Of a DNA stretch of 64,000 bases, positions 9,673-56,179 are shown piece by piece. The stretch is from Pseudomonas phage BRkr, in the sequence record LC765218.1, one strand, 5' to 3'. Position numbers and translations under genes: made by a program. How positions within the stretch are numbered: position 1 is the stretch's first letter; each line of letters begins with the position of its first letter. Under the pieces are notes generated by a model. That model did no database searches. It was not told where the DNA came from and saw only the letters and a list, made by a program, of their open reading frames with translations.

Positions 9673-9680
9673 CGAATCAC

Positions 9681-10631: not shown

Positions 10632-10633
10632 TA

Positions 10634-11620: not shown

Positions 11621-11632
11621 GTTAAATCATCC

Positions 11633-13471: not shown

Positions 13472-13884
13472 GGAGAGTAAAATTCTATTCACGGTTAGCT
13501 GCACAGGCATTGACTGACGAAAGCTACATTATTTCTATTCGCTGTCCCGAACAAGACGTAAAATTTGTACGCGAACACAAAGCTGTATTGGTTCTTGTTT
13601 TCGATGATATTGAAGATTATGTAGATAATCGTTATCAAATGTTTGACTACGTGCATGCTGATAAGATTCTTACATTCATCGATAAGATTCCAGATGGCGA
13701 AACGTTAATCGTTCACTGCGAGGCTGGCGTATCACGTAGTGCAGCTGTGGCTAAGTTTCTTCAGGGTATTGGCTGGGAAATCAAGAAAGATCGTTTTTGT
13801 AATGGTAAATTAGACATGGCTAATGGTCGAGTCTACGGTATGCTTCGTACTGTACATTATAGCCGTTCCAAAAATGAAGCTTAA
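13468..13884 (+). CDS. Cys-based protein phosphatase (dual-specificity/PTP-like), copy 1
   Basis: Canonical CX5R P-loop VHCEAGVSRSAAVA; start ATG overlaps the upstream stop (ATGA). Start moved from 13387 to 13468. Confidence 0.65.
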   Translation: MRRVKFYSRLAAQALTDESYIISIRCPEQDVKFVREHKAVLVLVFDDIEDYVDNRYQMFDYVHADKILTFIDKIPDGETLIVHCEAGVSRSAAVAKFLQGIGWEIKKDRFCNGKLDMANGRVYGMLRTVHYSRSKNEA

Positions 13885-21243: not shown

Positions 21244-23839
<2,596 letters not shown>

Positions 23840-32380: not shown

Positions 32381-32705
32381 AATCGTAAGTCGTAACCTAC
32401 TGCAATCCACTGGTGCTTGGGCAGTCGTCCATAACCGTGCTACCATGAACTTCATTGCTATCGGTCATGACCGTAAGGTTATTAAAGGTATCAGTCTGGG
32501 TTATCCGGTGAATGTTGGTGATGTCGATTTCAGTCATGTCGTGGATGTCCCTATGACCTTCGAAATCAGTTATCAAAATGATCCTCATCTGGGTCATCCT
32601 ACTGGTAATATGGAAGCTCTTCTGAAAGCTATTGAAGAAACTACCCATAAAACTCTAGGTCTTCCTAGCAAGTTGACCGTAGCTTCTAACGATGGAGGTG
32701 TTTAA
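32361..32705 (+). CDS. hypothetical protein (114 aa)
   Basis: Overlap coupling. Confidence 0.4.
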   Translation: MKMTISEIVSRNLLQSTGAWAVVHNRATMNFIAIGHDRKVIKGISLGYPVNVGDVDFSHVVDVPMTFEISYQNDPHLGHPTGNMEALLKAIEETTHKTLGLPSKLTVASNDGGV

Positions 32706-34048
32706 TGCATCAGTATCTACAACTACTTGAAGATACCCAGAAGTACGGTGTATTTAAAGGTGACCGTACTGGTACGGGTACTACCTCTTTGTTCGGTAGA
32801 CAGTTCCGCTATGATCTTCGTAACGGTAACCTCCCTGTAGTGACCACCAAGAAGATTCATCTTCCGTCGGTTGAAGAAGAACTCAACTGGATGAAGTCTG
32901 GTGACACTCGCCTTGAGTATCTCCTGAGCAAGAACGTTACCATTTGGAATGAATGGGTTAAACCAGGTACTGAAGTATTTGAAATTGTTTCTGATGAGTG
33001 GTTAACCACGGCTGTTCAGAAAAAGTTCAAAAACGTTCCATTTGAAATGCACTTCAGTAATGAGATCGGTGATGTTGATTGGAAGTGGCTTGAACCCGAG
33101 CAGGGTACCCCAGCTAAACTTCTGATTAATCTGAAGACGTGGGCCGATACGGAACGCTTTGGTCCTGGTCCTAGTGCTTATGATTATTACGGCATGGCTC
33201 TACGTGTTTATCGCATCACTATTGGCGATGCAAAGATCGTAGTCAAAGACAAAGATGGTTCTCTTGTTGCTTACCGTTTAATCGGTGGTGACCTTGGTCC
33301 TGTCTACGGCAAGACATGGCGTGATATCGATGACGTTCGAATTGTCCCCAAAGTCGACTGGGTTAACTACGAGAAACGTGGTTTTAAATTCGTGGTAGAC
33401 GTACCTGGTGAAGACTATACTAAAGACGAGTGTGTTATTCGTCGACATGTGGATCAGGTTCAGGAACTCTTGTATCAGTTGGAGCATAATCCGGATAGTC
33501 GTCGTCTGATTATCTGCGCTTGGGATCCTCGGTTGGTTGAAGATCAAGCACTACCTCCATGCCACGCATTTATTCAGTTCTGGACTCGTGAGCTGACTCT
33601 AGAAGAACGTTATGAATGGGCGCAGGAAAATGATCCAGAATCACAGAACATTTATCTAGAGGATCAGCAACCTGAAACTGGACACGAGCTATGGGATAAA
33701 CTCGGGGTTCCGAAACGAGCTATCAGTTGCCAACTCTATCAAAGATCGGCGGACGAATTTTTGGGCGTGCCCTTTAACATCATGTTCTATTCGCTGATGA
33801 CCCATCAATTGGCGAACCAGTTTAACATGGTAGCAGAAGAGTTCATCTGGACTGGTGGTGACTGTCACATCTACAGTAACCATGAGGAACAGGTTACTCT
33901 GCAACGTTCGCGGAATACTTATCCTACTCCTACCATCCGCTTCAAGCCTGAGGCCAAAGGTAAACCTTTCCTTGATATCACTCGGGAAGATTACGAGATT
34001 CTGGATTATCAGTTCCATCCGCACATTGCTGGTAAAGTTGCTGTTTAA
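32705..34048 (+). CDS. thyA: thymidylate synthase (ThyA) family enzyme with three large insertions (447 aa)
   Basis: DRTGTGT, DLGPVYGK, catalytic Cys in LPPCHAFIQFW and FLGVPFNI. GGDCHIYSNH keeps the Asn typical of uracil substrates. About 180 aa of extra sequence relative to the 264-aa E. coli enzyme. Confidence 0.8.
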   Translation: MHQYLQLLEDTQKYGVFKGDRTGTGTTSLFGRQFRYDLRNGNLPVVTTKKIHLPSVEEELNWMKSGDTRLEYLLSKNVTIWNEWVKPGTEVFEIVSDEWLTTAVQKKFKNVPFEMHFSNEIGDVDWKWLEPEQGTPAKLLINLKTWADTERFGPGPSAYDYYGMALRVYRITIGDAKIVVKDKDGSLVAYRLIGGDLGPVYGKTWRDIDDVRIVPKVDWVNYEKRGFKFVVDVPGEDYTKDECVIRRHVDQVQELLYQLEHNPDSRRLIICAWDPRLVEDQALPPCHAFIQFWTRELTLEERYEWAQENDPESQNIYLEDQQPETGHELWDKLGVPKRAISCQLYQRSADEFLGVPFNIMFYSLMTHQLANQFNMVAEEFIWTGGDCHIYSNHEEQVTLQRSRNTYPTPTIRFKPEAKGKPFLDITREDYEILDYQFHPHIAGKVAV

Positions 34049-34101: not shown

Positions 34102-34509
34102 ATGAACAATATCGAACTTAAACATCAGCTTGAACTCGCCGTAGAACTGATGGGTGTAGACCCTGCTCCACTTAAAATCGGTATCGCTGGTGATCGAGTT
34201 GATACTGCAACACGATGCGGTATTTTCAATGGGAAAGATCCGGGTAGAGAATTCAGTATCGGTCTTGGAATTGTTAGCCGAAAGCAATGGCTTGAACTCA
34301 CTGATGATTCCCTGATTCTCAATAAACCAAATAAAGATCCGGTTGTCATTCCCTATGACGCTATCTATGAGTTGAACATTCCTCTGGAATATGGCGAACA
34401 AGCAGAAAAAGAAGGTTGGATGTATTACAACCTTCTCGGGGAATCGATGTTCATGTATTTGGATACCGGTAAAGAAGAGAAACTTCAACTAGCTAAGGTA
34501 GAAGCCTGA
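34102..34509 (+). CDS. hypothetical protein (135 aa)
   Basis: ORF only. Confidence 0.45.
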   Translation: MNNIELKHQLELAVELMGVDPAPLKIGIAGDRVDTATRCGIFNGKDPGREFSIGLGIVSRKQWLELTDDSLILNKPNKDPVVIPYDAIYELNIPLEYGEQAEKEGWMYYNLLGESMFMYLDTGKEEKLQLAKVEA

Positions 34510-35333
34510 TGGATCCACGACACCCAGTTAGCGATGAAATGCGCGCAACGGTAAACGCTGAACTTGACCGAATTGAGAGGAAGTACGGTGTAAAGATTAT
34601 TTACGCTTGTGAGTCTGGTAGTCGTGGTTGGGGTTTTGCTTCTACTAACAGTGACTATGATGTTCGTTTCATCTACGTTAACCATCCGAGTCATTACGTT
34701 CGTGTAGATAACGAAGGTCGTGACACTATCGAGGAGATGGTATCGAAAGAACTCGATCTAGCTGGTTGGAATATCACCAAGACTCTACAGTTGGCTTATA
34801 AGTCCAACCCAACTCTGTTGGAATGGCTAAACTCTCCGATCGTCTATCGGAAGAATCAATGGGACTACGATCTGATTCGTTCCTATGCCATCAAGCACTT
34901 CATTCCTGAATCGAGCTTCATGCATTATATCTCCATGGCCAAACAAACCAAGATGCGATGGCTGTCGGATGATAAGGTTCGAATGAAGAAATACTTCTAT
35001 GCTTTGCGTCCTCTACTTGCAGCATTGTGGGTAGAGACCAGTCGTGAACATCCACCCATGGTGTTCCATGAACTGTTGCCTATTCTGTCTGATCCTACTC
35101 TGTACAAGCGTATCCAAGAATTGGTTAACGCTAAGGTTGGAGCTACTGAGCAGGATCTCGTTGACCGTTGCCCAGTTCTTGATCGGTTCATTGATTTCCA
35201 TCTGGCTAAAGAGAAACCAAACTTCGGCGAATACGAACGTCCGGATATCTACAGGCTCAGTGAACTCGCTTGGCACTTCGTTGATCAATACAAGTTCGAC
35301 ACGTTCCAGTTACTACATGGTACTGAAAAATGA
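34509..35333 (+). CDS. Pol-beta-superfamily nucleotidyltransferase (predicted)
   Basis: NTase signature ...CESGSRGWGFASTNSDYDVRFIY (hG[GS] x9-13 DhDh). Confidence 0.55.
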   Translation: MDPRHPVSDEMRATVNAELDRIERKYGVKIIYACESGSRGWGFASTNSDYDVRFIYVNHPSHYVRVDNEGRDTIEEMVSKELDLAGWNITKTLQLAYKSNPTLLEWLNSPIVYRKNQWDYDLIRSYAIKHFIPESSFMHYISMAKQTKMRWLSDDKVRMKKYFYALRPLLAALWVETSREHPPMVFHELLPILSDPTLYKRIQELVNAKVGATEQDLVDRCPVLDRFIDFHLAKEKPNFGEYERPDIYRLSELAWHFVDQYKFDTFQLLHGTEK

Positions 35334-35920
35334 ACGGCGGATTAGAGATGGCTATTATAAATGCAGCAGCGGCACGTTCCCCACACGGTTACAGTGAATC
35401 CATCGGCTGTAAGATAACTACCCGTAAGGAACCGTACGTGCCTATTTCCAAATGGGTTAAATTACGGTGTGTCGTATTGTATCTACTCTGTCTGTTATTC
35501 TTGAGTGGCGCAATCTACAACAGCTTGTATTCGGAATACGTAACCAAACGTAAGACGGAGGTGATTCTAACTTGGAAGTGGGAGGAATCTTACAAGTACA
35601 AGAATGGCGTTTATACCGAACTAATGAGTCGTTGGGAAGGGAAGATGAAAGGAAAACCTTTCGTCTATGAAACCAAGCTGGATAATTACACCTATCACCA
35701 TGTTCCCGTAGGTACAAATTATGTCCTCGATATCGCCCCGCGCGATGTTGATGAAAGTAATAGCCTATGGATTATCATGAGCTTGGTATGGGCAGCTTTA
35801 GCTGCCATCTTGGGTGGACCTGCAATGTGGTTCAGTGTGAGACCATGGTTTGTTGATGTAGAACTCCGGAGGAAAGAGAAAGAATGTGCTATGAAAGAAG
35901 AATCATCCCACTCGCAATAA
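35330..35920 (+). CDS. membrane protein (2 TM segments)
   Basis: Hydrophobic segments VVLYLLCLLFLSGAIY and LWIIMSLVWAALAAILGG; ATGA coupling. Confidence 0.45.
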   Translation: MNGGLEMAIINAAAARSPHGYSESIGCKITTRKEPYVPISKWVKLRCVVLYLLCLLFLSGAIYNSLYSEYVTKRKTEVILTWKWEESYKYKNGVYTELMSRWEGKMKGKPFVYETKLDNYTYHHVPVGTNYVLDIAPRDVDESNSLWIIMSLVWAALAAILGGPAMWFSVRPWFVDVELRRKEKECAMKEESSHSQ

Positions 35921-36130
35921 ACTCTTATCCTCTTCCAGCGTTCTTATGGAATGAGCGGTGCCTTCGGGCACCAAAGCCCTTCATGATCGATGGCTACTAT
36001 CACATACCTCCCTATCGTAGGGTAAGACCGGGATTTATAGTTGTTCCTACTGGCTTCACGACAACGCCTAGTACCGTAAGAGATGTAGTTGAGCCTCTAC
36101 GCGGTCGAGTGCGTAATACCAATAAGGCTA

Positions 36131-36160
36131 TTGACAATTTACTCAAAAGTCTTATCTAAT
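36131..36160 (+). promoter_or_regulatory. sigma70-like promoter candidate (TTGACA-18-TCTAAT)
   Basis: Exact -35 hexamer and a 5/6 -10 hexamer at 18-nt spacing, about 110 nt upstream of rtcB. It sits in one of only two long non-coding stretches in the window. Confidence 0.35.
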
Positions 36161-36162
36161 AC

Positions 36163-36191
36163 GGACATGCATGACATTACTCTACATGTCC
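36163..36191 (+). promoter_or_regulatory. leader hairpin ggacatg(15 nt)catgtcc
   Basis: 7-bp inverted repeat directly downstream of the candidate promoter, upstream of rtcB. Confidence 0.3.
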
Positions 36192-36270
36192 TTGGAATTC
36201 TGCGATCCCGACCTTGGCACAACGTTAAATCGTTGAATTCCTAAACCTTAAAACATCCGGAGCGTCTACA

Positions 36271-37524
36271 ATGACTACTCAAAATTACGTTATGCTGAAC
36301 GAACAAAATGAATTCCCAATCAAAGGCTGGGTTAAGGGCGTACCGGTTGAAGCCGATGCTAAGCGTCAGCTGAAAAACATTGCGGGACTCCCGTTCATTT
36401 ACAAGCATTTGGCAGTAATGCCTGATGTCCATCTTGGGACCGGTGCTACCATCGGTTCTGTTATCGCTACTCGGGGTGCAATCATTCCGTCTGCGGTAGG
36501 GGTCGATATTGGGTGCGGAATGGCCTGCCAGCTGACTGATCTGACAGCTAACGACATGACTCGTGGCCTACAACATCTTCGATATAGAATCGAGTCCCGT
36601 ATCCCCCATGGTCGTACTGACAATGGCGGACCTAACGACCGTGGTGCATGGAGTGACTTCAACCTCGTTTACAAGAAACTCGAACCAGAACTCCAAGTTC
36701 AGGTTAAGAAGCTTGAAGAGGAACTGAAGCTCATTGTAGCTAAACACCCCAAACTGGGTAAAGCAGCTAACCGTGCGTTCAACCATGCTGGTACCCTCGG
36801 CACTGGTAACCACTTCGTCGAAATCTGTCTGGATGAACAAGATCGAGTTTGGATCATGCTCCATTCGGGTTCTCGTGGGATCGGTAACGCTATTGGTCGG
36901 TACTTCATCGAGAAAGCAAAAGAGGAGATGCGGCTCTACCACATCAACCTGCCTGATCAGGACCTCGCTTATCTGCCGGAAGGTACCAAGTACTACAACG
37001 ATTACATCGAAGCTGTACATTGGGCTCAGCGTTATGCAGCACTCAACCGTACCATCATGATGCGGGCGACCATTGAGGCTGTAGCTGATTACATGGGTCG
37101 TCCAATCAATACCAGTCTCACTGCGGTCAACTGCCACCACAACTACGTGTCGTTCGAGAATCACTTCGGTGCGAAAGTATCCGTTACTCGTAAAGGCGCT
37201 GTACGGGCAGATGAAGGCATGTATGGTATTATCCCTGGATCGATGGGTGCAAAGAGCTTCATCGTGAAAGGTAAAGGGAACCGCGAGTCCTTCTGTTCGT
37301 GTTCGCACGGAGCAGGACGTGTCATGTCCCGAACCCAAGCCGCTAAGACTTTCACTCTTGAAGATCATGCTCGTGATACTGCCGGTATAGAATGCCGGAA
37401 AGACATTGACGTAATCGACGAGACTCCAAAGGCTTATAAGAACATCGAAGACGTAATGGCTGCTCAGGATGACCTCATTGAGATCGTCCACACCCTGCGT
37501 CAAATTGTTTGCGTCAAGGGCTAA
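36271..37524 (+). CDS. rtcB: RtcB RNA 3'-phosphate/2',3'-cyclic phosphate--5'-OH ligase
   Basis: Hallmark blocks NHAGTLGTGNHFVEI, HSGSRGIG, CHHNYVSFENHFG and the C-terminal SCSHGAGR. Confidence 0.85.
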   Translation: MTTQNYVMLNEQNEFPIKGWVKGVPVEADAKRQLKNIAGLPFIYKHLAVMPDVHLGTGATIGSVIATRGAIIPSAVGVDIGCGMACQLTDLTANDMTRGLQHLRYRIESRIPHGRTDNGGPNDRGAWSDFNLVYKKLEPELQVQVKKLEEELKLIVAKHPKLGKAANRAFNHAGTLGTGNHFVEICLDEQDRVWIMLHSGSRGIGNAIGRYFIEKAKEEMRLYHINLPDQDLAYLPEGTKYYNDYIEAVHWAQRYAALNRTIMMRATIEAVADYMGRPINTSLTAVNCHHNYVSFENHFGAKVSVTRKGAVRADEGMYGIIPGSMGAKSFIVKGKGNRESFCSCSHGAGRVMSRTQAAKTFTLEDHARDTAGIECRKDIDVIDETPKAYKNIEDVMAAQDDLIEIVHTLRQIVCVKG

Positions 37525-37571
37525 CCCGAACGGGGACTTCGGTCCCCATAACTTTCCTAAAGGAAAAATAA

Positions 37572-38459
37572 ATGATTCGAATTACTCAGCTTCACGGTAA
37601 CGGCCTGGCAGATCACTACGATTGTCAGCCCTTTAAATTCCCTGGCGGTGAGATCGGTATCAAGATCCCTCTGAAAGATCACAGAAAGAAAGGTGAACAA
37701 TTCATAGTCAATGCTTGGCTTCGTAATAGCGATGACATCATGGAACTGTTCCTGGTGTTCGATGCTATTCGTCGTCAACGTATTCGTCCTGAAATGCACC
37801 TGGTTATTGGTTATCTGCCGTATGCACGACAAGATCGTGTTTGCGATGAAGGTGAACCTTTGTCGATCAGTGTGATGACTAGCTTGATCAACGCATTGGA
37901 TGCTACATCCGTGTGTTTGTACGATCCGCACAGCAATGTGTCGCTACCGCTCATCAACAACTGTCGTGAAATCACCCAAGCTGATATTATCAAGAGCTGG
38001 GTATGTGTAGAAGGACAACTTCTGGAAACTCCACAAGAATGGTGGTTGGTTGCCCCTGATGAAGGTGCACGTAAAAAGATCGAAGCCATTGCAAAAGAGA
38101 TTGGCGCTGCTGGCGTACTCTACGCTTGCAAGAACCGTGAACTGTCGACTGGTAAGATCACCCATACGTCTTTGTTGAATGCCCATGATGTTCCTCGGTT
38201 AGCAAAGCTGTTGGTTATCGATGACATCTGTGATGGTGGCCGCACGTTCATTGAACTTGCTAAGGTTATCCACGAACAGTGCATCGTAGATCAACTGGGT
38301 CTGTTTGTAACCCATGGTATTTTCTCCAAGGGTTTCGACGAGCTGAACGAATACTACGACTATATCCAGACCACTAACACCTATCATCCTAACGCCGTAA
38401 ATGATTATCGGCATGATGGTGTACGTGACCCGAAATTCTTCTCCCATTCTGTTTTCTAA
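37572..38459 (+). CDS. prs: ribose-phosphate pyrophosphokinase family enzyme (Prs, or ADPR-PP synthetase Adps-like)
   Basis: FPGGEIGIKI (Prs FxDGE-type), LPYARQDR and PRPP-binding loop LLVIDDICDGGRTF. Confidence 0.7.
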   Translation: MIRITQLHGNGLADHYDCQPFKFPGGEIGIKIPLKDHRKKGEQFIVNAWLRNSDDIMELFLVFDAIRRQRIRPEMHLVIGYLPYARQDRVCDEGEPLSISVMTSLINALDATSVCLYDPHSNVSLPLINNCREITQADIIKSWVCVEGQLLETPQEWWLVAPDEGARKKIEAIAKEIGAAGVLYACKNRELSTGKITHTSLLNAHDVPRLAKLLVIDDICDGGRTFIELAKVIHEQCIVDQLGLFVTHGIFSKGFDELNEYYDYIQTTNTYHPNAVNDYRHDGVRDPKFFSHSVF

Positions 38460-38475
38460 TCCGAGGATCAAAAAT

Positions 38476-40242
38476 ATGTCTAATGCTCTCTATGCTGCAA
38501 CTGCTACTGACTGCTACAAACCCGGTCATGGTGCTCTGTACCCGAAAGGTACTGAACGTAAATATGCTAACTTCACCCCGCGCTCTGCTAAGCAGTTCCT
38601 GCGGTCGAAGTCTTGCTCTGCGTTCTACGATAACAAAGTCGTTAACTTCGGGTTGCAAGGTACCTGGCACGAACTGGTAGAACTGTGGGATCGCACCTTC
38701 TTCAATCTGCCTCGTGAAATTGCCGTCAAACGTGCACAACGTCGTTTCGACAACATGTGCGGTAAAGGCGTAATCAAACATGAGTGTCTGTACAAACTAC
38801 ATGAACTGGGTTATCTGCCTCTGACTGTACTGGCTATTGATGAAGGTGAACGTGTTAACATTGGTGTTCCAACTTTCGTAGTTTACAACAGTCTGGATGA
38901 CGATGATCATTACTGGCTGGTGAACTATCTGGAAACCATCGTTAGTTCGTACAACTGGAAAATGATTTGCAACGCAACCATCGCTGCTGAATACCAACGT
39001 GTATTGAACCATTATGCTGACCGTACTTGCGATAACCGTGAGCACGTTAAGTTCCAAGCACATGATTTCAGCTTCCGTGGTATGAGTGGCCCTGAAGATG
39101 CAATGCGTTCTGGCTCGGCTCACCTGACTAGCTTCGCTGGTACTGATACCATCCCGGCACTTGATTACGCTGAGATGTATTACGGTGCTAATAGCGATAC
39201 TGAACTGTTGGGTGCTTCGGTTACTGCAACCGAACACGCTGTAGCCACTACCAACATCCTGTACCGTTTGCAAATGAAGATCAACTTCCTCAAAGAGGAA
39301 GGTACTGTGATCACGCCGGAACTGCATGACAAACTGCGACTGGAAGCTGAACGTGACTACATTCTGGAGATCATTCTTCAGAAAGTTCCGGAAGGCATCA
39401 TCTCGCTGGTCTGTGATTCCTTCGACTTCTGGGGTGTTATCTCTGATGTTCTCCCGAGCATCCGTGCAGAAATCGAAAGTCGTCTGAAGAATGAACTTGG
39501 CCTTGCCAGGGTTGTTGTTCGTCCTGACTCCGGTGATCCGGTTAAAGTTATTACTGGCTACATGGCTTACCCGACTGAGTTTGCAGATCGCGCTGATTTC
39601 GAGAAGCACATCGGTGAACTGGGGTCCATTGAGTTCAGTGGCTACGAAGTTGTACGTATCGCAGGCGAATACTACGAGATCAATCACATTGCTTCGTTGC
39701 TCTCCGATTTCCTGTCTGAAAAGACTATCCCGGAAGTTGAAGTACGTGGTGCGATTGAAGTCCTGTGGGATTCCTTTGGCGGTACTGTTAACGGTAAAGG
39801 CTTCAAATGCCTGAACGAATATGTTGGCCTGATCTATGGCGATTCGATTACTGTAGAACGTACCGAGCAGATCATGTCTCGCTTGGAACGTAAAGGCTAC
39901 GCCTCTAGTAACGTCGTTCTCGGTATTGGTAGCTACACCTATCAGTACAACACTCGCGATACGTTCGGTATGGCCGTTAAAGCCACTGCTGTTCAGATCG
40001 AAGAGGAATTCGTAGAGCTGTATAAAGATCCAAAAGCTGCATCTAGTAAGAAGTCTGCAAAAGGTTTCCTTCGTGTAATTAAAGATGAAGAAGGTAACTT
40101 CGTTCTTGAACAAGAAGCCGACATGTCTTGGGCGACTCTGGAGACAGAATCCGGCGAATTGAAGCTGTTCTTTAAGAATGGTGAATTCTACAAGAACGAC
40201 ACGATGGCAAAAATCCGGGAACGGATTGCGACCTCTCTGTAA
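38476..40242 (+). CDS. nadV: nicotinamide phosphoribosyltransferase family enzyme (NAMPT/NadV or Namat-like)
   Basis: N-terminal AATATDCYKPGH matches the NAMPT TDSYK block; ~590 aa; GAGGA RBS before the ATG at 38476. Confidence 0.75.
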   Translation: MSNALYAATATDCYKPGHGALYPKGTERKYANFTPRSAKQFLRSKSCSAFYDNKVVNFGLQGTWHELVELWDRTFFNLPREIAVKRAQRRFDNMCGKGVIKHECLYKLHELGYLPLTVLAIDEGERVNIGVPTFVVYNSLDDDDHYWLVNYLETIVSSYNWKMICNATIAAEYQRVLNHYADRTCDNREHVKFQAHDFSFRGMSGPEDAMRSGSAHLTSFAGTDTIPALDYAEMYYGANSDTELLGASVTATEHAVATTNILYRLQMKINFLKEEGTVITPELHDKLRLEAERDYILEIILQKVPEGIISLVCDSFDFWGVISDVLPSIRAEIESRLKNELGLARVVVRPDSGDPVKVITGYMAYPTEFADRADFEKHIGELGSIEFSGYEVVRIAGEYYEINHIASLLSDFLSEKTIPEVEVRGAIEVLWDSFGGTVNGKGFKCLNEYVGLIYGDSITVERTEQIMSRLERKGYASSNVVLGIGSYTYQYNTRDTFGMAVKATAVQIEEEFVELYKDPKAASSKKSAKGFLRVIKDEEGNFVLEQEADMSWATLETESGELKLFFKNGEFYKNDTMAKIRERIATSL

Positions 40243-40250
40243 TAGACATG

Positions 40251-40275
40251 GGGAGCTTCGGCTCCCCTTTATGTC
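40251..40275 (+). terminator. terminator ggggagcTTCGgctcccc + TTTATG
   Basis: 7-bp stem. Confidence 0.65.
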
Positions 40276-40284
40276 ATAAAAAAG

Positions 40285-40305
40285 ATTTCAAATCTATATT
40301 ACTCT
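40285..40305 (+). promoter_or_regulatory. class A promoter-like motif (TTCAAATCTATATTACTC)
   Basis: CTATATTAC 30 nt upstream of the ATG at 40332. Confidence 0.5.
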
Positions 40306-40331
40306 CTTGTATCCACAACGAGGTAACTGCA

Positions 40332-40730
40332 ATGTCGAATAAAGACCGTTTAGATGAAAAGAAAGAATGGCAAGAATCGAACCCAGTTCTCAATGAGTTC
40401 TGCTGGACTATAAGTCGTACCATGGGCGACGTAGCACGTACCAGTGACGACCGTACTCCCATTGTCGATATCCCTGCTGGAAAGACTTATGAAATCACTA
40501 CCAACCAGGAGAACGATATTTATAATGTCGGTCTTGAAACTGGTATGGTGAACTTCGTTGATCACCTACGCGAGAATGGTTACAAGATCATCTCGCCGGT
40601 AAGTGGGCATCCTGTCCCATTTGAGCAAGCTGTAACCTTGGTAAATAGCACAGAGCAGGTCGTACAAGAACTACCTGGTAAGTCTTTCGTTGAAACCTTC
40701 TATGATTATAACTGGGGTGTGAATACATGA
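40332..40730 (+). CDS. hypothetical protein (132 aa)
   Basis: ATG after the promoter-like motif; the ORF-track start at 40248 lies inside the terminator. Confidence 0.45.
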   Translation: MSNKDRLDEKKEWQESNPVLNEFCWTISRTMGDVARTSDDRTPIVDIPAGKTYEITTNQENDIYNVGLETGMVNFVDHLRENGYKIISPVSGHPVPFEQAVTLVNSTEQVVQELPGKSFVETFYDYNWGVNT

Positions 40731-40933
40731 TCGCAGCGCCGCCGACACCGGGTAAAGTAACGATAGATGGTTTACGTCGAACGTTGTCAGATCAGATTGA
40801 AGCTGAAATTTCATTGGCTTGTCGTGAAATTGAACTGACAGACATTCGTTATGTAGATCAAAAAGAAATACTCGAAATAGTGCGGCGGTTCCGTAATGAC
40901 GTTCGCACAACCATCACTGATAAAGGTAAATAA
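40727..40933 (+). CDS. hypothetical small protein (68 aa)
   Basis: Overlap coupling. Confidence 0.4.
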   Translation: MIAAPPTPGKVTIDGLRRTLSDQIEAEISLACREIELTDIRYVDQKEILEIVRRFRNDVRTTITDKGK

Positions 40934-40934
40934 A

Positions 40935-42290
40935 ATGACGATTGAAATGGATGAATTGAAACCGATCCGCGAAGGTTTTGGTGTAGTAGAAGAAACTCGT
41001 AAGCTTGCACGCATTGTTGAGATCGATGATGTTGTGAAACACCCTAATGCCGATGCTCTGGAATTGGCTATTGTTGGTGGTTGGCAACTTTGTGTAAAGA
41101 TGGGCGAATATAAGAAAGGTGATCGCGCTATTTACTGCGAGATTGATTCTCTTCTTCCTCTGGATAACGTTAAGCTCTTCGGTTTTCTTGAGAGCCGTCG
41201 GTCCGACAATCGACGTGTAGACGGTAAAAACTATCATCGTTTGAAAACTATCAAGCTTCGTAAAGAGCTCTCTCAAGGACTACTGGTTCCGATTCCCGAT
41301 GAGTTCAAAGATGAACCCGTTGATACTAACCTGACCCTGAAGCTGGGTATCCTTAAGTACGAGTCTGCTCCTCCGATGGTATCGAAGGCTCATGCAGCAC
41401 GTAACGCTCCGTGGATCGTTAAGCTTGGTGCCAAGCTGATTGGTAATCTGGGTGGCGCTCTGAAACCGTGGCCTGAGATGCTAACTAAGTCCGATCAAGA
41501 CCGCATTCAGAATAAGACCGTTGCGTTTTATAACCTGAAAGAAGACGGTGATGACATGGAAGTTACCTATAAGCTGGATGGTAGCTCCATGACCGTATTC
41601 TGTGTCGATGACAAAGGTATTCGTACTGGCGTTTGTTCGCGGAACTACGAACTCGGAATGGGTGGTGAGAAGTGGGGATTCATCCAGCAGCTTCGGTATT
41701 GGGTTGGTAACTTCCTTATCCGTAACCGTAATCTGTTCCGTAAGAAGACCTGGGTTACTCCAGAAGGTAAACTTCGTAATGGTATTATTCTGCCCCTTTG
41801 GACGAAAGGTACCGCTATCGAAGACAATAACTTCGTACGTGTAACTAACCAACAACAGATCATCGAACGTCTTCTCAAGTTCCACAAGAACACCGGTCGC
41901 TTCATTTCTGTACAAGGGGAACTGATTGGACCATCTATTCAAGATAACTTTGAAGAAGTGGCTGATTACGATTATTACATCTTCAACGTATATGAGGATG
42001 GTAATCGTGAACTCCTGCCGGCCGAAGCACGAGCTGTTGTAAAAGACCTTGGTCTGAATTATGTTCCCGTACTTGACCCGTGCTGGAAACCTTCTAAGGA
42101 AATGTCTGTTAAAGATGTTCTCGCTATGGCTGAAGGTCCATCTGCATTTAAGAACAAGCGCGGATACCGGGAAGGTCTGGTATTTAAGTCCAACCAACGT
42201 GTTCTGTCGTGGAAAGCCATTTCGACTAATTATCTCTTGAAGAAAGAGAAAGAAGAAGAGAAAGCAGCTGCTAAAGAAGACGCTGTATAA
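40935..42290 (+). CDS. ATP-dependent RNA ligase with an N-terminal tRNA-binding-type OB domain (Rnl5-like architecture)
   Basis: N-terminal VVKHPNADALELAIVGGWQLCVKMGEYKKGDRAIYCEIDSLLP resembles the tRNA-binding OB (Myf/Trbp111) fold. Nucleotidyltransferase motif I TYKLDGSS (KxDG), motif IV-like GYREGLVFK, Lys-rich C-terminus. Confidence 0.6.
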   Translation: MTIEMDELKPIREGFGVVEETRKLARIVEIDDVVKHPNADALELAIVGGWQLCVKMGEYKKGDRAIYCEIDSLLPLDNVKLFGFLESRRSDNRRVDGKNYHRLKTIKLRKELSQGLLVPIPDEFKDEPVDTNLTLKLGILKYESAPPMVSKAHAARNAPWIVKLGAKLIGNLGGALKPWPEMLTKSDQDRIQNKTVAFYNLKEDGDDMEVTYKLDGSSMTVFCVDDKGIRTGVCSRNYELGMGGEKWGFIQQLRYWVGNFLIRNRNLFRKKTWVTPEGKLRNGIILPLWTKGTAIEDNNFVRVTNQQQIIERLLKFHKNTGRFISVQGELIGPSIQDNFEEVADYDYYIFNVYEDGNRELLPAEARAVVKDLGLNYVPVLDPCWKPSKEMSVKDVLAMAEGPSAFKNKRGYREGLVFKSNQRVLSWKAISTNYLLKKEKEEEKAAAKEDAV

Positions 42291-46310: not shown

Positions 46311-46316
46311 ATCACG

Positions 46317-46350
46317 GGGAGCTTCGGCTCCCCTTTGTTCTTTTCTTTTT
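46317..46350 (+). terminator. terminator ggggagcTTCGgctcccc + T-rich tail
   Basis: 7-bp stem followed by TTTGTTCTTTTCTTTTTTT. Confidence 0.65.
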
Positions 46351-48255: not shown

Positions 48256-48864
48256 ATGATGGATATTGTAGCAGAAGCATATCAGCAAGTTAAAGCTATC
48301 TTGGATACTCGCATCCCGGCGAACGTGCTTCCGCTATGGAAAGGGCATCACACAGTAGAGTTAGCAGCAGCTATTGGTGTAGGTTATACGATCGGTTCTG
48401 GTGAACGACGTAAAGGTTCTGGGCTACCGGTATGGACACATTTGCACAATGCAGCATCCATCGGTAAAATGTTTGGACTTGGTCCTGGCGAACAGGCTGC
48501 CTTGTGGTTACATGACATCGTCGAAGATAGTAGCTGGACTCTCGATGACGTTCTAACTCATTTCACGCCGTATATCACCAAACTTGTACAAGGTTTAACG
48601 CAGCCGAATTTTGATGCTCCTCGGAAAGTTCGAATCGATGCGTATCATCGGCAATTAGAAGAATGTTGTGACGTTACACAGACGTGCAAACTTATTGAAT
48701 CTCTCACCAACGTGTATGTCATCGTTGATGATGCTCCTAAGTTTGCGCCCGTCTTCCTCAAAGAGAAATTGGACCTCTATAATCGAATGACTAAAGCTCA
48801 TCCGGTAGTAAGAGATGTATTCAAGATTTTCTTAGACGAGGCATTTGCTAAACTGGAGGCTTAA
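48256..48864 (+). CDS. HD-domain phosphohydrolase (SpoT/Mesh1-like ppGpp-hydrolase-type HD)
   Basis: H...HD signature: HTVELAAAI followed by ALWLHDIVEDS, matching the RelA/SpoT HD motif LHDVIEDT. Confidence 0.55.
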   Translation: MMDIVAEAYQQVKAILDTRIPANVLPLWKGHHTVELAAAIGVGYTIGSGERRKGSGLPVWTHLHNAASIGKMFGLGPGEQAALWLHDIVEDSSWTLDDVLTHFTPYITKLVQGLTQPNFDAPRKVRIDAYHRQLEECCDVTQTCKLIESLTNVYVIVDDAPKFAPVFLKEKLDLYNRMTKAHPVVRDVFKIFLDEAFAKLEA

Positions 48865-52592: not shown

Positions 52593-52957
52593 CCGTATAT
52601 TTCGAAGGCACTGGTGAACCGCGCGCAGCCACGTTCAGTGAAGTACGTGATCTGTTTATAGACGCGGTAAATAGTAAACGAGATGAAATTCTCGCTGAAG
52701 CTGAACAAGGTAAGTATGAGGCATATGTCAATCCGAATGCTGCCATGGCGGATGATATTGTCTCTGGTGTACTCGGTGTGATTGAAGGTAACCATCCCGA
52801 CTGTCCCGGTTTTTCACTCATTCCTAAGGTGGGTGAAGAAGAAAAAGCCGAAGCTATTGAAGCAGGTGGAAACTGGATTCCATTCGCATCTGAAGATGTG
52901 GAAGCAATCGATATTTCCGATGGGGTAGTTGATTATTTCAAATTGGTAAACAGCTAA
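52589..52957 (+). CDS. hypothetical acidic protein (122 aa)
   Basis: ATGA coupling. Confidence 0.45.
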   Translation: MTVYFEGTGEPRAATFSEVRDLFIDAVNSKRDEILAEAEQGKYEAYVNPNAAMADDIVSGVLGVIEGNHPDCPGFSLIPKVGEEEKAEAIEAGGNWIPFASEDVEAIDISDGVVDYFKLVNS

Positions 52958-53457
52958 TGAACTACAGTATCATCGAAGCTCCCATTCTTGTGAAGATGTC
53001 CCTACGTTCGATCATAGAGAACAAACTTTACGAACAATCCGGTTCACTCTGTCGTTATATCAAAACCATTCTGAAAAATGGTACCGTGAGACGTTACCGT
53101 GTGGTAATGGCGATCGATGATACTGATGGTGCACTGGTTGGTTATATCTTGCACAATACTGGCCGTCGTAATCTCTGTATGTTCTACGTTAAACCCGAAT
53201 TCCGGCGAAAAGGCGTCGGTTCAGGTATGGTGAAAGAACTACGACGATTGACTGGTTCAAAACTTCTACGTGGTTATTATGGTTTCCATGGATACCAACA
53301 TTTCTACGAGAAGCATTACATCTACCAAGTCGATGCTGACTTCACGACTGAAGAAACTAAACGCATTCTGAGGGGTGAAGTTAAAGCATCATCCATTCTG
53401 AAATACCGGCAACACAAACTACGTCTTAAAACCAAACAACTTGTAGGAGAAGCTTAA
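52957..53457 (+). CDS. GNAT-family N-acetyltransferase
   Basis: Acetyl-CoA motif A: FYVKPEFRRKGVGSGMVKEL (R-x-x-G-x-G). Confidence 0.55.
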   Translation: MNYSIIEAPILVKMSLRSIIENKLYEQSGSLCRYIKTILKNGTVRRYRVVMAIDDTDGALVGYILHNTGRRNLCMFYVKPEFRRKGVGSGMVKELRRLTGSKLLRGYYGFHGYQHFYEKHYIYQVDADFTTEETKRILRGEVKASSILKYRQHKLRLKTKQLVGEA

Positions 53458-54965: not shown

Positions 54966-55316
54966 ATGCATAATCTAAACATCGTTATTATTGGTAGTCC
55001 ATTCCTCTATGGAATCCTCACACTGATTTCGATTGGTCTGGCGGGATGGATTCTGTTCTCTAAAAAGAACTGGGTAAAACAACTTGGTTTTGCAAAACGC
55101 TTCCTCATCGCTTTGGTCATCGTAATCTTCTTCCAGTTGTCGCTGCTTCAAATTACCACTCCGGTGAAACAATCAGCGGTAACTCGATTCGATGCACCGC
55201 TGGTTGATCAATCAACTATCCCGGAAAAAGTTACCAAACCCCAAGATAATGTGTCGAAAGCTCAATCTTCTTTTGACGAACAACTCAAGAAATCTAAACA
55301 GGAAAACGCGCAATGA
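54966..55316 (+). CDS. membrane protein (3 TM segments)
   Basis: IVIIGSPFLYGILTLISIGLAGWILF and LIALVIVIFFQLSLLQI. Confidence 0.45.
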   Translation: MHNLNIVIIGSPFLYGILTLISIGLAGWILFSKKNWVKQLGFAKRFLIALVIVIFFQLSLLQITTPVKQSAVTRFDAPLVDQSTIPEKVTKPQDNVSKAQSSFDEQLKKSKQENAQ

Positions 55317-56179
55317 AAAAGTATATCCAATTTGTTTTTGCAATTCTGATCGCTCTCGCAGTTACCGGTTGTTCGTTTGAGGTTATTCCTCCGGCGCACA
55401 AAGGTAAGCTACTCACTGTTAACGGCTATTCCCCGGAAGTTCTCGAACCCGGTAAACTCACTGTCTATGGACGTGATCAACTCATCCTGCTGGATGGTTC
55501 GGTACAGACCAAAAACGAACAACTGACTGTAAAAATGGCAGATAAACTCGATCTGACTTTTACCGTTAGCTTCCGGACTCGCGTTGCTGGTAACGAACAA
55601 GTTATCAACGCCATGTTCAACTCGATCACCGTTGTTGACAACATCGTTACCCTGGATCAAGTTTACAGTATCTACGGGCGTGATGTAGTTAGCTCGGTTT
55701 CTCGTTCTGTGCTCGGCAAATATAAAGTCGAAGAAGTTCCTGCAAACTTCGATAAGATCACTGCTGATCTTCTGGCCAAACTCCAAGAAGCAATGAAAAA
55801 TTCTCCGCTTGAAGTATCTAACGTTACTCTCGGTAGTCTGAAGTATCCGAGTGTTATTACTGAAGCTATTGAGAAACAAGCTGAGCGTGAACTTGCTATT
55901 CAGACCGAGAATAACCAGCAAGCGATTGAAATGACCAAACGCACTAACGCCTTGAAACTGGCCGAAGCTGATCGTGAGGTTGAGCTGACTAAAGCACGTA
56001 CCCTGCGTGATCAGAACCAAATCGTTGCTGCGGGTATCAGCGAGAAGCTTCTGCAATATCGTGCTCTGGAAGTCCAAGAGAAAATGGCTAACAGTCTGGG
56101 TAACTCCGGCTCGTCCATCTTCGTTCCGTATGAAGCACTGAACAGCACTGGCATGAGCAATCGTGTATTCAGCAAGTAA
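55313..56179 (+). CDS. SPFH/Band-7 (HflK/C-, prohibitin-like) lipoprotein
   Basis: Lipobox LAVTGCS. The SPFH region and the coiled-coil tail EKQAERELAIQTENNQQAIEMTKRTNALKLAEADREVELTKARTLRDQNQIVAAG fit band-7 architecture. Confidence 0.6.
   Translation: MKKYIQFVFAILIALAVTGCSFEVIPPAHKGKLLTVNGYSPEVLEPGKLTVYGRDQLILLDGSVQTKNEQLTVKMADKLDLTFTVSFRTRVAGNEQVINAMFNSITVVDNIVTLDQVYSIYGRDVVSSVSRSVLGKYKVEEVPANFDKITADLLAKLQEAMKNSPLEVSNVTLGSLKYPSVITEAIEKQAERELAIQTENNQQAIEMTKRTNALKLAEADREVELTKARTLRDQNQIVAAGISEKLLQYRALEVQEKMANSLGNSGSSIFVPYEALNSTGMSNRVFSK

What the first reader, a model, noticed from the sequence alone, without database searches (positions are those of the whole stretch)
37572..40242. Prs-family gene immediately upstream of a NAMPT-family gene with no NMNAT: NARP1-like (Adps + Namat) pair
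The PRPP-synthetase homolog (FPGGEIGIKI, PYARQDR, VIDDICDGGRTF) is followed 17 nt later by the NAMPT homolog (TDCYKPGH). In the described NAD-reconstitution pathway 1, a Prs homolog (Adps) pyrophosphorylates ADPR and a NAMPT homolog (Namat) condenses ADPR-PP with nicotinamide into NAD+. Pathway 2 instead needs NMNAT, which I could not find anywhere in the window by its H-x-G-H motif. The unusual Gly in place of the Prs Asp (FPGGE vs FxDGE) may reflect an altered substrate, ADPR rather than ribose-5-P.
Basis: partly seen in the sequence, partly recalled or inferred. Interest (0 to 1): 0.7.

Follow-up and report, generated by a model that had tools for sequence, protein, structure and literature searches.

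The report
Phage NAD+ rebuilding gene pair (NARP1)
This is an ordinary, already catalogued copy of the two-gene phage pathway NARP1, which rebuilds NAD+ from the fragments left by bacterial NAD+-destroying defences, here in a Pseudomonas aeruginosa jumbo phage whose close relative carries phage-nucleus genes.

Summary
A 295-aa Prs-family ORF (37572-38459) is followed 16 nt later by a 588-aa NAMPT-family ORF (38476-40242). The window is a Pseudomonas jumbo phage of genus Pawinskivirus, 99.7% identical to phiLBG22 and 98.8% to PS119XW.

The first protein is not a housekeeping Prs. It falls below every NCBIfam Prs cut-off. It scores 261 bits against an Adps profile and 60 bits against a Prs profile. 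It groups with Adps in 200 of 200 bootstraps.

The second protein is far closer to the crystallised SPbetaL1 Namat (348 bits) than to human NAMPT (156 bits). It carries the published Namat adenine-clamp signature exactly (GSYTYQYNTRD).

No NMNAT, Macro or RyR domain was found in any window ORF. No PxHxGH-coding gene was found in the whole PS119XW genome.

The NARP1 interpretation is therefore supported by homology. It is not new: Osterman et al. (2024) already list these proteins of PS119XW, PA1C and phiLBG22 in their Adps and Namat tables.

The validated SPbetaL1 Adps has FPNGE, and bona fide actinobacterial Prs have FANGE.

Mildly interesting context: the pair sits between RNA-repair genes, an order conserved in Ralstonia phage RP12.

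The parts
37532..37547 (+). GC-rich hairpin GGGGAC-UUCG-GUCCCC between the RtcB stop (37524) and the Adps start. It is a possible terminator or processing element marking the 5' border of the pair.
   Evidence: Sequence, position. RNA fold -12.3 kcal/mol but z = -1.69 only, so the support is weak.
37560..37564 (+). Shine-Dalgarno-like AAGGA, 7 nt upstream of the Adps ATG.
   Evidence: Read directly from the sequence.
37572..38459 (+). adps: predicted ADP-ribose pyrophosphokinase (ADPR-PP synthetase), 295 aa, Prs superfamily.
   Evidence: Pfam Pribosyltran_N 2e-10. Below all NCBIfam Prs cut-offs. phrog_619 1.9e-80. Adps HMM 261 bits versus Prs HMM 60 bits, and NJ bootstrap 200/200 with Adps. 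The PS119XW, PA1C and phiLBG22 orthologs are listed in Osterman Table S1.
38130..38132 (+). Lys187 (in CKNRELSTGK), which aligns with the catalytic Lys162 of SPbetaL1 Adps. The K162A mutant of that enzyme is inactive.
   Evidence: Alignment, K162 context, coordinates.
38214..38249 (+). VIDDICDGGRTF, the counterpart of the Prs ribose-5-phosphate binding loop (DDxxDTGGT). The phosphate-contacting Thr is replaced by Gly, as in other Gram-negative-phage Adps.
   Evidence: Alignment. Prs R5P loop residues from PMC5395218. The link to ADPR binding is inference.
38463..38467 (+). Shine-Dalgarno-like GAGGA, 8 nt upstream of the Namat ATG. It supports 38476 as the true start.
   Evidence: Same start as annotated in PS119XW and in Osterman Table S2.
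38476..40242 (+). namat: predicted nicotinamide ADP-ribose transferase, 588 aa, NAMPT family, long form with two insertions.
   Evidence: PDB phmmer: SPbetaL1 Namat 9W5W/9W5X 9.7e-103 (348 bits) versus human NAMPT about 1e-44 (PDB identities). 42% identity to Bas63 and SPbetaL1 Namat, 31% to a KVP40-like Nampt. The PS119XW and PA1C orthologs are labelled 'Adps-associated' in Osterman Table S2.
38575..38637 (+). Selectivity-clamp loop (SCL, beta1-beta2 loop): TPRSAKQFLRSKSCSAFYDNK. The third loop residue is Lys39, as in Bas63 (SDKW). The loop is 9 aa longer than in SPbetaL1.
   Evidence: Alignment. SCL rule from PMC12774641. Which residue stacks on the adenine is not established.
39235..39237 (+). 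His254 (in ATEHA). It is inferred here to be the conserved catalytic histidine of the Nampt/Namat core. The aligned SPbetaL1 motif is A242-T-E-H.
   Evidence: Invariant column H254. A242 is a published NAM contact and the paper reports a conserved catalytic histidine. Its residue number comes from my own counting of the motif.
39256..39360 (+). Insertion 1 (about 35 aa) relative to SPbetaL1 Namat. A shorter version is present in Bas63 Namat.
   Evidence: pairwise alignment with RP12 Namat; gap in the PDB alignment. Function unknown.
39562..39744 (+). Insertion 2 (about 60 aa) after RPDSGDPVKVITGY. Bas63 Namat has an insertion at the same site.
   Evidence: Function unknown.
39928..39960 (+). 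Selectivity-clamp helix (SCH) signature GSYTYQYNTRD. [quoted passage not shown]
   Evidence: Motif definition in PMC12774641. Window, Bas63 and SPbetaL1 have the motif; the KVP40-like Nampt has GGGLLQQLDRD. Coordinates.
40245..40275 (+). Strong stem-loop (core GGGGAGC-UUCG-GCUCCCC, 40250-40267) followed by UUUAU, 8 nt after the Namat stop. It is the likely 3' end of the two-gene unit.
   Evidence: Terminator-like hit. Fold -19.7 kcal/mol, z = -5.3, 0 of 200 shuffles as stable. The same 18-mer recurs at 46316.

Best explanation
The two genes are a core NARP1 (NAD+ reconstitution pathway 1) cassette of a Pseudomonas aeruginosa jumbo phage (Pawinskivirus). Its close relative PS119XW is annotated with a nuclear shell protein and PhuZ tubulin. 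Many bacterial defences (SIR2, TIR, SEFIR effectors) cleave NAD+ into ADP-ribose and nicotinamide. In the proposed mechanism, the first enzyme (Adps, a Prs relative) transfers pyrophosphate from ATP onto the terminal ribose of ADP-ribose to give ADPR-PP. The second enzyme (Namat, a NAMPT relative) displaces that pyrophosphate with nicotinamide and regenerates NAD+ directly, so no NMN adenylyltransferase is needed. What is shown here: family and clade membership of both proteins, conservation of the catalytic and selectivity residues, operon-like arrangement, and absence of a detectable NMNAT. What is inferred from characterised homologs (Bas63 in vivo, SPbetaL1 in vitro and by crystallography): the two reactions and the anti-defence role.
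For: Adps: NCBIfam scores lie below every Prs cut-off (103 bits versus 113 for TIGR01251; equivalog cut-offs are 296-536). phrog_619 gives 1.9e-80. A profile built from 16 Adps-table sequences, without the window protein, scores it 261 bits, against 60 bits for a Prs profile. The Prs | Adps+window split appears in 200/200 NJ bootstraps, with Ralstonia RP12 and a Pseudomonas Pakpunavirus Adps as nearest neighbours. The catalytic Lys (SPbetaL1 K162) and the clade-typical DPHS, KxR..TG and DDICDGGxTF motifs are present. The Prs N-terminal segment and C-terminal tail are absent, as in other Adps. Namat: 348 bits to SPbetaL1 Namat versus 156 to human NAMPT and 147 to Xcc Nampt. The SCH motif is matched exactly and all aligned NAM/NMN/AMP contact residues are conserved or conservatively replaced. 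Arrangement: a 16-nt gap, SD sequences before both genes, and a strong hairpin after the second gene. No NMNAT, Macro or RyR domain in the window. In the PS119XW genome the only PxHxGH coding matches are three antisense hits inside known genes, and no NMNAT is annotated. Published census: the PS119XW and PA1C proteins are listed as Adps homologs (PS119XW with a Namat within 10 genes) and as 'Adps-associated' Namat. The phiLBG22 Adps homolog is in Table S1 as well.
Against: No biochemistry or genetics exists for this phage or genus. Identity to the characterised enzymes is modest: Adps 27.5% to SPbetaL1 and 33.6% to Bas63; Namat 42% to both. My Prs reference set was small (E. coli plus six actinobacterial sequences) and the tree was neighbour-joining, not maximum likelihood. 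Archaeal-type Prs were covered only through the NCBIfam thresholds. The SCL residue after Lys39 is Gln, not the Trp seen at that position in Bas63 (the paper assigns the stacking role to the fourth SCL residue), so the adenine-stacking residue is uncertain. Namat enzymes retain PRPP-dependent NMN synthesis in vitro, so some NMN output cannot be excluded.
Confidence: 0.87

Rival explanations
1. Conventional salvage. The first enzyme is a true PRPP synthetase and the second a true NadV/NAMPT. Together they make NMN from ribose-5-phosphate and nicotinamide, and host enzymes (for example PncC/NadD/NadE or NadR-type) finish the route to NAD+.
For: This is what the deposited annotations say. NCBIfam NF006629 (NadV-type model) is passed by the second protein (444 versus 405 bits). 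Namat enzymes can make NMN from PRPP in vitro when ADPR-PP is absent.
Against: The first protein fails all curated Prs thresholds and sits in the Adps clade. The SPbetaL1 Adps gave no product when ribose-5-phosphate was tested as substrate (Fig. 2D legend; text). Bas63 NARP1 worked in a pncC nadR double mutant. The second protein has the adenine clamp that true Nampt lacks. NF006629 is named for the nicotinate/nicotinamide PRTase family only; whether it separates Namat from Nampt was not tested.
Confidence: 0.07
2. NARP2-type pathway (Nampt + Nmnat, as in Vibrio phage KVP40), with the NMNAT encoded elsewhere in the genome.
For: Only 64 kb of a roughly 302 kb genome is in the window. A very divergent NMNAT lacking PxHxGH would escape the motif scan.
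Against: No NMNAT family hit in any window ORF. The whole PS119XW genome has no sense-strand PxHxGH match and no annotated NMNAT. The window protein is 31% identical to a KVP40-like Nampt but 42% to Namat, and tblastn bit scores are about 150-170 versus 350-460. Osterman et al. found no phage encoding both pathways, and 94% of KVP40-type Nampt phages have an Nmnat. NARP2 does not need a Prs homolog.
Confidence: 0.02
3. Same chemistry, different purpose (not exclusive with the best explanation). The pair mainly sustains the phage's own NAD+ demand, for example its NAD+-dependent DNA ligase, or recycles ADPR generated during normal infection, rather than countering immunity.
For: The window encodes a complete LigA-type NAD+-dependent DNA ligase at about 21.7-23.8 kb. 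Jumbo phages often carry NAD+ synthesis genes described as metabolic (PMC11662467).
Against: LigA produces NMN + AMP, not ADPR + nicotinamide, so NARP1 cannot recycle its products. In Bas63, ADPR-PP appeared only when a defence system was present. NARP1 is nearly phage-specific.
Confidence: 0.15

Closest known systems
NARP1 of Escherichia phage Bas63 (JohannRWettstein) genes 79-80. Shown in vivo to counter SIR2-HerA (Osterman et al. 2024, bioRxiv 10.1101/2024.02.11.579819; Nature 634:1160).
   Same: Same gene order, with adps then namat on one strand (45-nt gap in Bas63, 16 nt here). Long-form Namat (593 versus 588 aa) with insertions at the same two sites. SCH motif GSYTYQYMTRD versus GSYTYQYNTRD. 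SCL with Lys at the third position. Adps with DDICDGGRTF and THGIFSKG.
   Different: 33.6% (Adps) and 42% (Namat) identity only. The host and phage type differ: Felixounavirus of E. coli versus a 300-kb Pseudomonas jumbo phage. The fourth SCL residue is Gln here and Trp in Bas63. The neighbours differ too: nucleotide reductases and rII genes in Bas63, RNA-repair genes here.
NARP1 of Bacillus phage SPbetaL1 (Adps WIT26982, Namat WIT26983). Reactions shown in vitro. Namat crystal structures 9W5X and 9W5W (PMC12774641).
   Same: Catalytic Lys of Adps conserved. The Namat NAM, ribose-phosphate and adenine contact residues align, with F392 replaced by Tyr and A362 by Ser. The best PDB match of the window protein is this structure.
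   Different: 27.5% Adps identity. SPbetaL1 Adps has the Gram-positive-phage loop DDLSSFGGTF. SPbetaL1 Namat is the short form (491 aa) without the two insertions and uses Arg40 in a shorter SCL.
Orthologous pairs in Pawinskivirus phages (phiLBG22, PS119XW gp280-281, PA1C, HHBS36_1, phiHQ, HPP-Temi) and in Ralstonia jumbo phage RP12 (ORF212-211).
   Same: 88-99.7% DNA identity within the genus. RP12 has the same RtcB-Adps-Namat-x-RNA ligase order. Its Namat gene has the same length (1767 bp) and is 50% identical, and its RNA ligase is 35% identical.
   Different: Records annotate the genes as ribose-phosphate pyrophosphokinase and nicotinamide (or nicotinate) phosphoribosyltransferase, not as Adps and Namat. 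PS119XW carries an extra roughly 317-aa insertion in the neighbouring RtcB.
Housekeeping class I PRPP synthetase (Prs; for example E. coli Prs, M. smegmatis PrsA).
   Same: Two-domain PRTase fold family. Shared PYARQDR flexible-loop start, PD.G PP-loop, K-x-R, and the DD of the ribose site.
   Different: About 20-22% identity. The window protein lacks the Prs N-terminal beta-alpha segment and the C-terminal tail. It has DPHS instead of DLH[AT] and DGGRT instead of DTGGT in the 5-phosphate loop. It is below all NCBIfam Prs thresholds.
NARP2 (KVP40-type Nampt + Nmnat) and the extended NARP1 variants: NARP1-AP with Macro-domain phosphatase Adpp, and NARP1 with the RyR-domain glycosidase RyDEP.
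   Same: All are phage NAD+ reconstitution routes built around a NAMPT-family enzyme.
   Different: No Nmnat, Macro or RyR (PF02026) domain protein was found within two genes on either side or anywhere in the window. This is the plain two-gene NARP1. By the published logic it would not handle ADPR-1''-phosphate from aRES systems.

Membership tests
Adps (ADPR-PP synthetase of NARP1) | Prs-superfamily protein that falls in the phage-specific Adps clade, separate from prokaryotic Prs | tested here: met
   Adps HMM 261 bits versus Prs HMM 60 bits. NJ bipartition 200/200. Below all NCBIfam Prs cut-offs. Limits: small Prs reference set and a distance tree.
Adps (ADPR-PP synthetase of NARP1) | Namat homolog within 10 genes (true for 97% of the clade) | tested here: met
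   The Namat homolog starts 16 nt downstream on the same strand. Definition.
Adps (ADPR-PP synthetase of NARP1) | Catalytic lysine equivalent to SPbetaL1 K162 | tested here: met
   Lys187 in CKNRE aligns with K162 in GHKQR. The K162A mutant is inactive.
Adps (ADPR-PP synthetase of NARP1) | Pyrophosphorylates ADPR with ATP and is inactive on ribose-5-phosphate | not testable with these tools
   Requires purified protein and LC-MS.
Namat (nicotinamide ADPR-transferase of NARP1) | Nampt-like catalytic core (SPbetaL1 D13, Y15, F189, R192, D215, catalytic His, R306, D308) | tested here: met
   Window D12, Y14, F198, R201, D224, H254, R349 and D351 are invariant columns in the alignment. Residue list; the position of the catalytic His is my own assignment from the aligned ATEH motif.
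Namat (nicotinamide ADPR-transferase of NARP1) | SCH signature GS-X-phi1-X-phi2-X-phi3-TRD with aromatic X at positions 3 and 7; absent from Nampt | tested here: met
   GSYTYQYNTRD at aa 485-495. The KVP40-like Nampt has GGGLLQQLDRD.
Namat (nicotinamide ADPR-transferase of NARP1) | SCL loop supplying an adenine-stacking residue: third residue R/K/Y, and if it is K or Y the next residue stacks | tested here: inconclusive
   The third residue is Lys39 (allowed), but the fourth is Gln40, followed by Phe41. The loop is 9 aa longer than in SPbetaL1. Which residue stacks needs a structure.
Namat (nicotinamide ADPR-transferase of NARP1) | Closer to Adps-associated Namat than to Nmnat-associated or cellular Nampt | tested here: met
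   348 and 321 bits to the top PDB chains (9W5W/9W5X are Namat; 9KE8 not identified) versus 147-156 bits to Nampt. 42% versus 31% identity. tblastn scores are bimodal.
Namat (nicotinamide ADPR-transferase of NARP1) | Prefers ADPR-PP over PRPP and makes NAD+ directly | not testable with these tools
   Requires an enzyme assay with both donors.
Housekeeping Prs (ribose-phosphate diphosphokinase) | Reaches the curated NCBIfam/TIGRFAM score for the family | tested here: not met
   Best score is TIGR01251 at 103.2 bits versus a cut-off of 113. Equivalog models give 40-90 bits versus cut-offs of 296-536.
Housekeeping Prs (ribose-phosphate diphosphokinase) | R5P-binding loop D-D-x-x-D-T-[GA]-G-T | tested here: not met
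   The window has DDICDGGRT, with the contacting Thr replaced by Gly. Loop definition from PMC5395218.
NARP2 (Nampt + Nmnat) | An Nmnat encoded by the same phage | tested here: not met
   No NMNAT family or motif in the window. None found in the PS119XW genome by annotation or by PxHxGH scan. The whole-genome test was motif-based, not profile-based.
NARP1-AP / RyDEP-extended NARP1 | Macro-domain phosphatase (Adpp) or RyR-domain (PF02026) protein in or next to the operon | tested here: not met
   Pfam at E up to 1 on the neighbouring ORFs and at E up to 0.01 on 82 further ORFs gave no Macro or RyR hit.

The most novel reading that the evidence does not exclude
In this jumbo-phage lineage, NARP1 may be a fixed part of a cytoplasmic counter-defence module. 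The order RtcB-Adps-Namat-x-RNA ligase is conserved between Pseudomonas Pawinskivirus and Ralstonia Ripduovirus. The pair could be the phage's specific answer to SIR2-type anti-jumbo immunity such as P. aeruginosa Avs5. Avs5 hydrolyses NAD+ to ADPR + nicotinamide early in infection and blocks phage-nucleus formation (PMC12931631). The prediction is that Pawinskivirus phages resist Avs5 in a NARP1-dependent way. The evidence does not exclude this, and nothing here tests it.
Probability: 0.3. Interest if true: 0.45.

Novelty: already known. Interest (0 to 1): 0.2.

Why it matters
It corrects the deposited annotations ('ribose-phosphate pyrophosphokinase' and 'nicotinamide phosphoribosyltransferase'), which imply NMN synthesis. 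It also indicates that this therapeutic-candidate type of P. aeruginosa jumbo phage probably carries a broad counter-measure against NAD+-depleting defences (Thoeris type I, DSR, SIR2-HerA, SEFIR, possibly Avs5). By published logic it would not cover aRES-type systems, because no Adpp phosphatase is present. This matters for predicting host range. It adds no new biology beyond the 2024 discovery and its census.

Tried and rejected
- The longest-ORF start of the NAMPT homolog (38401) was rejected. It overlaps adps, lacks an SD sequence, and disagrees with the PS119XW annotation and Osterman Table S2. I used 38476 instead. A first attempt with 38477 was out of frame.
- The sigma-70 promoter scan of 35800-41200 found 5 sites against 7.6 expected by chance. 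It is uninformative, and such phages may also use promoter types the scan does not cover.
- I tried to retrieve the KVP40-type Nmnat by searching its published cloning primer in the KVP40-like locus L005. There were 0 matches, so no Nmnat reference sequence was obtained. The NMNAT test used Pfam on window ORFs and a PxHxGH coding-pattern scan on the PS119XW genome instead.
- Most fetched loci were not exported to the Python sandbox. A local profile search of the entire PS119XW proteome could therefore not be run.
- I asked whether the gene after RtcB in Pseudomonas phage Psa21 is the RNA ligase, which would show a clean NARP1 insertion site. It is unrelated (E = 0.10), so insertion versus loss cannot be decided.
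- The upstream hairpin (37532-37547) is only marginally more stable than shuffles (z = -1.7). It is reported as weak.
- The expensive protein-database, structure-prediction and fold-search tools were not used, because the identity of both proteins was already settled.


Full report
**Source of the window.** Megablast of 37000-41000 finds seven Pseudomonas phage records that each cover at least 91% of the query. The best are vB_PaeM_phiLBG22 (99.7%), PS119XW (98.8%), HHBS36_1, phiHQ, PA1C (91%) and HPP-Temi (88%). These are roughly 300-kb phages of genus Pawinskivirus. The PS119XW record annotates a nuclear shell protein and PhuZ tubulin, so the relative carries phage-nucleus genes. The window's RtcB is 100% identical to that of phiLBG22.

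**The observation.** The downstream ORF runs to 40242. Its biologically sensible start is 38476 (MSNALY...). That start is preceded by GAGGA and is the one used in PS119XW and in the published table. The protein is therefore 588 aa and the gap is 16 nt. Pfam, PHROGs and NCBIfam place the two proteins in the Prs and NAMPT/NAPRTase superfamilies with E-values from 2e-10 to 3.8e-175.

**Is the first protein Prs or Adps?** NCBIfam gives 103 bits on the broad TIGR01251 model (cut-off 113). It gives 40-90 bits on the Prs equivalog and subfamily models, whose cut-offs are 296-536. By curated thresholds it is not a ribose-phosphate diphosphokinase. It matches the phage family phrog_619 at 1.9e-80.

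I took 16 sequences from Supplementary Table 1 of Osterman et al. These include the experimentally studied Bas63 and SPbetaL1 Adps and one bacterial Adps-like protein. I added seven Prs sequences: E. coli, translated, and six actinobacterial sequences from the same table.

- A profile built from the Adps set, without the window protein, scores it 261 bits. The Prs sequences score 85-144 bits on that profile.
- A Prs profile scores the window protein 60 bits, within the range of the other Adps (30-116 bits).
- A neighbour-joining tree recovers the split Prs | Adps+window in 200 of 200 bootstraps. The window protein sits next to Ralstonia phage RP12 and a Pseudomonas Pakpunavirus Adps.

The alignment shows several features shared with Adps and not with Prs:
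- loss of the Prs N-terminal segment and C-terminal tail;
- DPHS instead of DLH[AT];
- K-x-R-x-x-x-T-G;
- DDICDGGRTF instead of DDMIDTGGT.

Lys187 aligns with SPbetaL1 K162, whose alanine mutant is inactive.

The position after FP/FS in the FxxGE motif is G, N, S, A, D or K among Adps. It is D, N or S among Prs. SPbetaL1 Adps, which pyrophosphorylates ADPR in vitro, has FPNGE, and actinobacterial Prs have FANGE.

In Prs structures this beta2-beta3 'flag' hairpin completes the active site of the opposing subunit. Ribose-5-phosphate is held by the loop Asp230-Thr238 (DDxxDTGGT), with contacts from Asp230, Asp234, Thr235, Gly236 and Thr238 (PMC5395218).

The systematic Adps/Prs difference lies in that loop: Thr is replaced by Gly here, and the loop is SSFGGT in Gram-positive-phage Adps. 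The loop is a more plausible determinant of ADPR use. This is inference, not a test.

**Is the second protein Nampt or Namat?** Against all PDB sequences the best matches are 9W5W and 9W5X (9.7e-103, 348 bits). PMC12774641 identifies these as SPbetaL1 Namat bound to NAD+ and to nicotinamide. Human, mouse and rat NAMPT score about 155 bits and Xanthomonas Nampt 147 bits.

In a four-way alignment the window protein is 42% identical to both Bas63 and SPbetaL1 Namat. It is 31% identical to the Nampt of a KVP40-like Schizotequatrovirus.

That paper defines a Namat-specific adenine 'selectivity clamp'. [quoted passage not shown] The window protein has GSYTYQYNTRD at aa 485-495, a complete match. The KVP40-like Nampt has GGGLLQQLDRD.

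The variable clamp loop (SCL) has Lys at its third position, as in Bas63. It is followed by Gln-Phe rather than Trp, and the loop is longer, so the stacking residue is uncertain.

All catalytic-core residues listed for SPbetaL1 Namat are conserved. The 588-aa length is due to two insertions (aa 261-295 and 363-423). Bas63 Namat (593 aa) has insertions at both sites. RP12 Namat, encoded by a gene of the same length, aligns with the window protein in 597 columns at 50% identity. This is the usual long form seen in phages of Gram-negative hosts.

**NMNAT and accessory genes.** I scanned about 100 non-overlapping ORFs of 70 aa or more in the window against Pfam, in four calls. No cytidylyltransferase-like/NMNAT, Nudix, Macro or RyR family was hit. 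The coding pattern for P-x-H-x-G-H has no match in the window.

I fetched the whole PS119XW genome. No NMNAT is annotated. The pattern occurs three times, all antisense to annotated genes (gp001 and the nuclear shell protein). This whole-genome test is motif-based and would miss an aberrant NMNAT.

Osterman et al. searched with the KVP40 Nmnat and report no phage that carries both pathways. The locus is therefore the plain two-gene NARP1. It is not NARP2, not NARP1-AP (Macro-domain Adpp phosphatase), and not the RyDEP-extended form.

**Prior knowledge.** Supplementary Tables 1 and 2 of Osterman et al. (bioRxiv 10.1101/2024.02.11.579819, later Nature 634:1160) list the following entries.
- MN103543_00276 (PS119XW) and MK599315_00291 (PA1C) appear among the Adps homologs. 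PS119XW is marked 'Yes' for a Namat within 10 genes.
- OU343167_00278 (phiLBG22) is also listed among the Adps homologs.
- MN103543_00277 and MK599315_00292 are labelled 'Adps-associated' Namat.

NARP1 was found in 859 of about 20,000 phage genomes. My tblastn finds homologs of the window Namat in 2,034 of 50,697 phage records. AntiDefenseFinder-type tools already call NARP1 in P. aeruginosa phage panels and in the Pseudomonas nucleus-forming phage Ahti. The finding is therefore already known.

**Mechanism.** The chemistry is taken from the characterised homologs.
1. Adps: ADPR + ATP gives ADPR-PP.
2. Namat: ADPR-PP + nicotinamide gives NAD+, with the pyrophosphate displaced.

NAD+ is restored from exactly the products of SIR2, TIR and SEFIR NADases. 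Shown here: clade membership, conserved catalytic and selectivity residues, tight gene linkage, and absence of a detectable NMNAT. Inferred: the activities and the anti-defence phenotype in this phage.

**Local anatomy.** Both genes have SD-like sequences. A very stable UUCG-looped hairpin followed by U-rich sequence lies 8 nt after the Namat stop (-19.7 kcal/mol, z = -5.3). The same 18-mer recurs at 46316. A weaker hairpin lies between RtcB and adps (z = -1.7). The pair thus looks like a discrete unit.

**Context.** The pair is embedded among RNA-repair genes: RlaP nucleotidyltransferase (34509-35333), RtcB (36271-37524) and an Rnl-type RNA ligase (40935-42290). The same order RtcB-Adps-Namat-x-RNA ligase is found in Ralstonia jumbo phage RP12. 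Pseudomonas phage Psa21 and Erwinia phage Desertfox have the RtcB but no NARP1 next to it.

The window also encodes a LigA-type NAD+-dependent DNA ligase. P. aeruginosa Avs5, a SIR2-STAND system, specifically restricts nucleus-forming jumbo phages by hydrolysing NAD+ to ADPR + nicotinamide (PMC12931631). It is a reasonable but untested idea that NARP1 in Pawinskivirus counters such systems. This is the only angle with some novelty.

**Verdict.** The system is already known and catalogued, so interest is low.

Noticed in passing
window 34509-35333, 36271-37524, 40935-42290; L012 (Ralstonia phage RP12) 6953-13425: RNA-repair genes (RlaP nucleotidyltransferase, RtcB, Rnl-type RNA ligase with PHA02142 OB domain) flank the NARP1 pair. 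The order RtcB-Adps-Namat-x-RNA ligase is conserved in Ralstonia jumbo phage RP12. Psa21 and Erwinia Desertfox have the RtcB without NARP1.
   Followed up: partly
window 36271-37524 versus L001 6321-8525 (PS119XW gp279): RtcB is 417 aa in the window but 734 aa in PS119XW. There it matches the Pfam RtcB model and the window protein in two pieces, consistent with an intein-like insertion that is absent here.
   Followed up: partly
window 32705-34048: The thymidylate synthase is 447 aa although the Pfam model is 266 positions long, so it carries large insertions. The PS119XW ortholog is 476 aa.
   Followed up: no
window 21707-23839 (probable true start near 21797): A complete NAD+-dependent DNA ligase (LigA type: Nlig-Ia, adenylation, OB, HhH and BRCT domains). 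The phage therefore has its own NAD+-consuming replication enzyme about 14 kb upstream of NARP1.
   Followed up: partly
window 5295-8450 (-): A 1051-aa SNF2/helicase protein (annotated as DarB-like antirestriction in PS119XW) carries a LAGLIDADG_3 domain at aa 371-418. This may be another intein or homing-endonuclease insertion.
   Followed up: no
window 40250-40267 and 46316-46333: The identical 18-nt hairpin GGGGAGCTTCGGCTCCCC occurs after two different genes. It is probably a recurrent terminator or RNA-stability element of this phage.
   Followed up: partly
window 13387-13884 (+) and 52957-53457 (+): One ORF has a Cys-phosphatase signature (VHCEAGVSRS) and is the probable source of the Pfam DSPc hit. 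Another has a GNAT-like RRKGVGSG motif and is the probable source of the acetyltransferase hits. The hits were assigned to ORFs by motif only.
   Followed up: no
window 8719-12583 (-): Four consecutive ORFs of nearly equal size (317, 316, 328 and 316 aa) lie on the minus strand. They may be tandem paralogs. One ortholog is annotated as a virion structural protein in PS119XW.
   Followed up: no
window, one of 82 ORFs scanned (not located): A weak Pfam DNA_processg_A (DprA/SLOG-like Rossmann) hit, E = 2.5e-4. It was not located or pursued.
   Followed up: no
window 16910-17659, 19951-20595, 48256-48864, 55313-56179: QueC-like protein, dCTP deaminase, HD-domain phosphohydrolase and SPFH/Band 7 protein. 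These are other auxiliary genes in the same early or middle-gene region.
   Followed up: no
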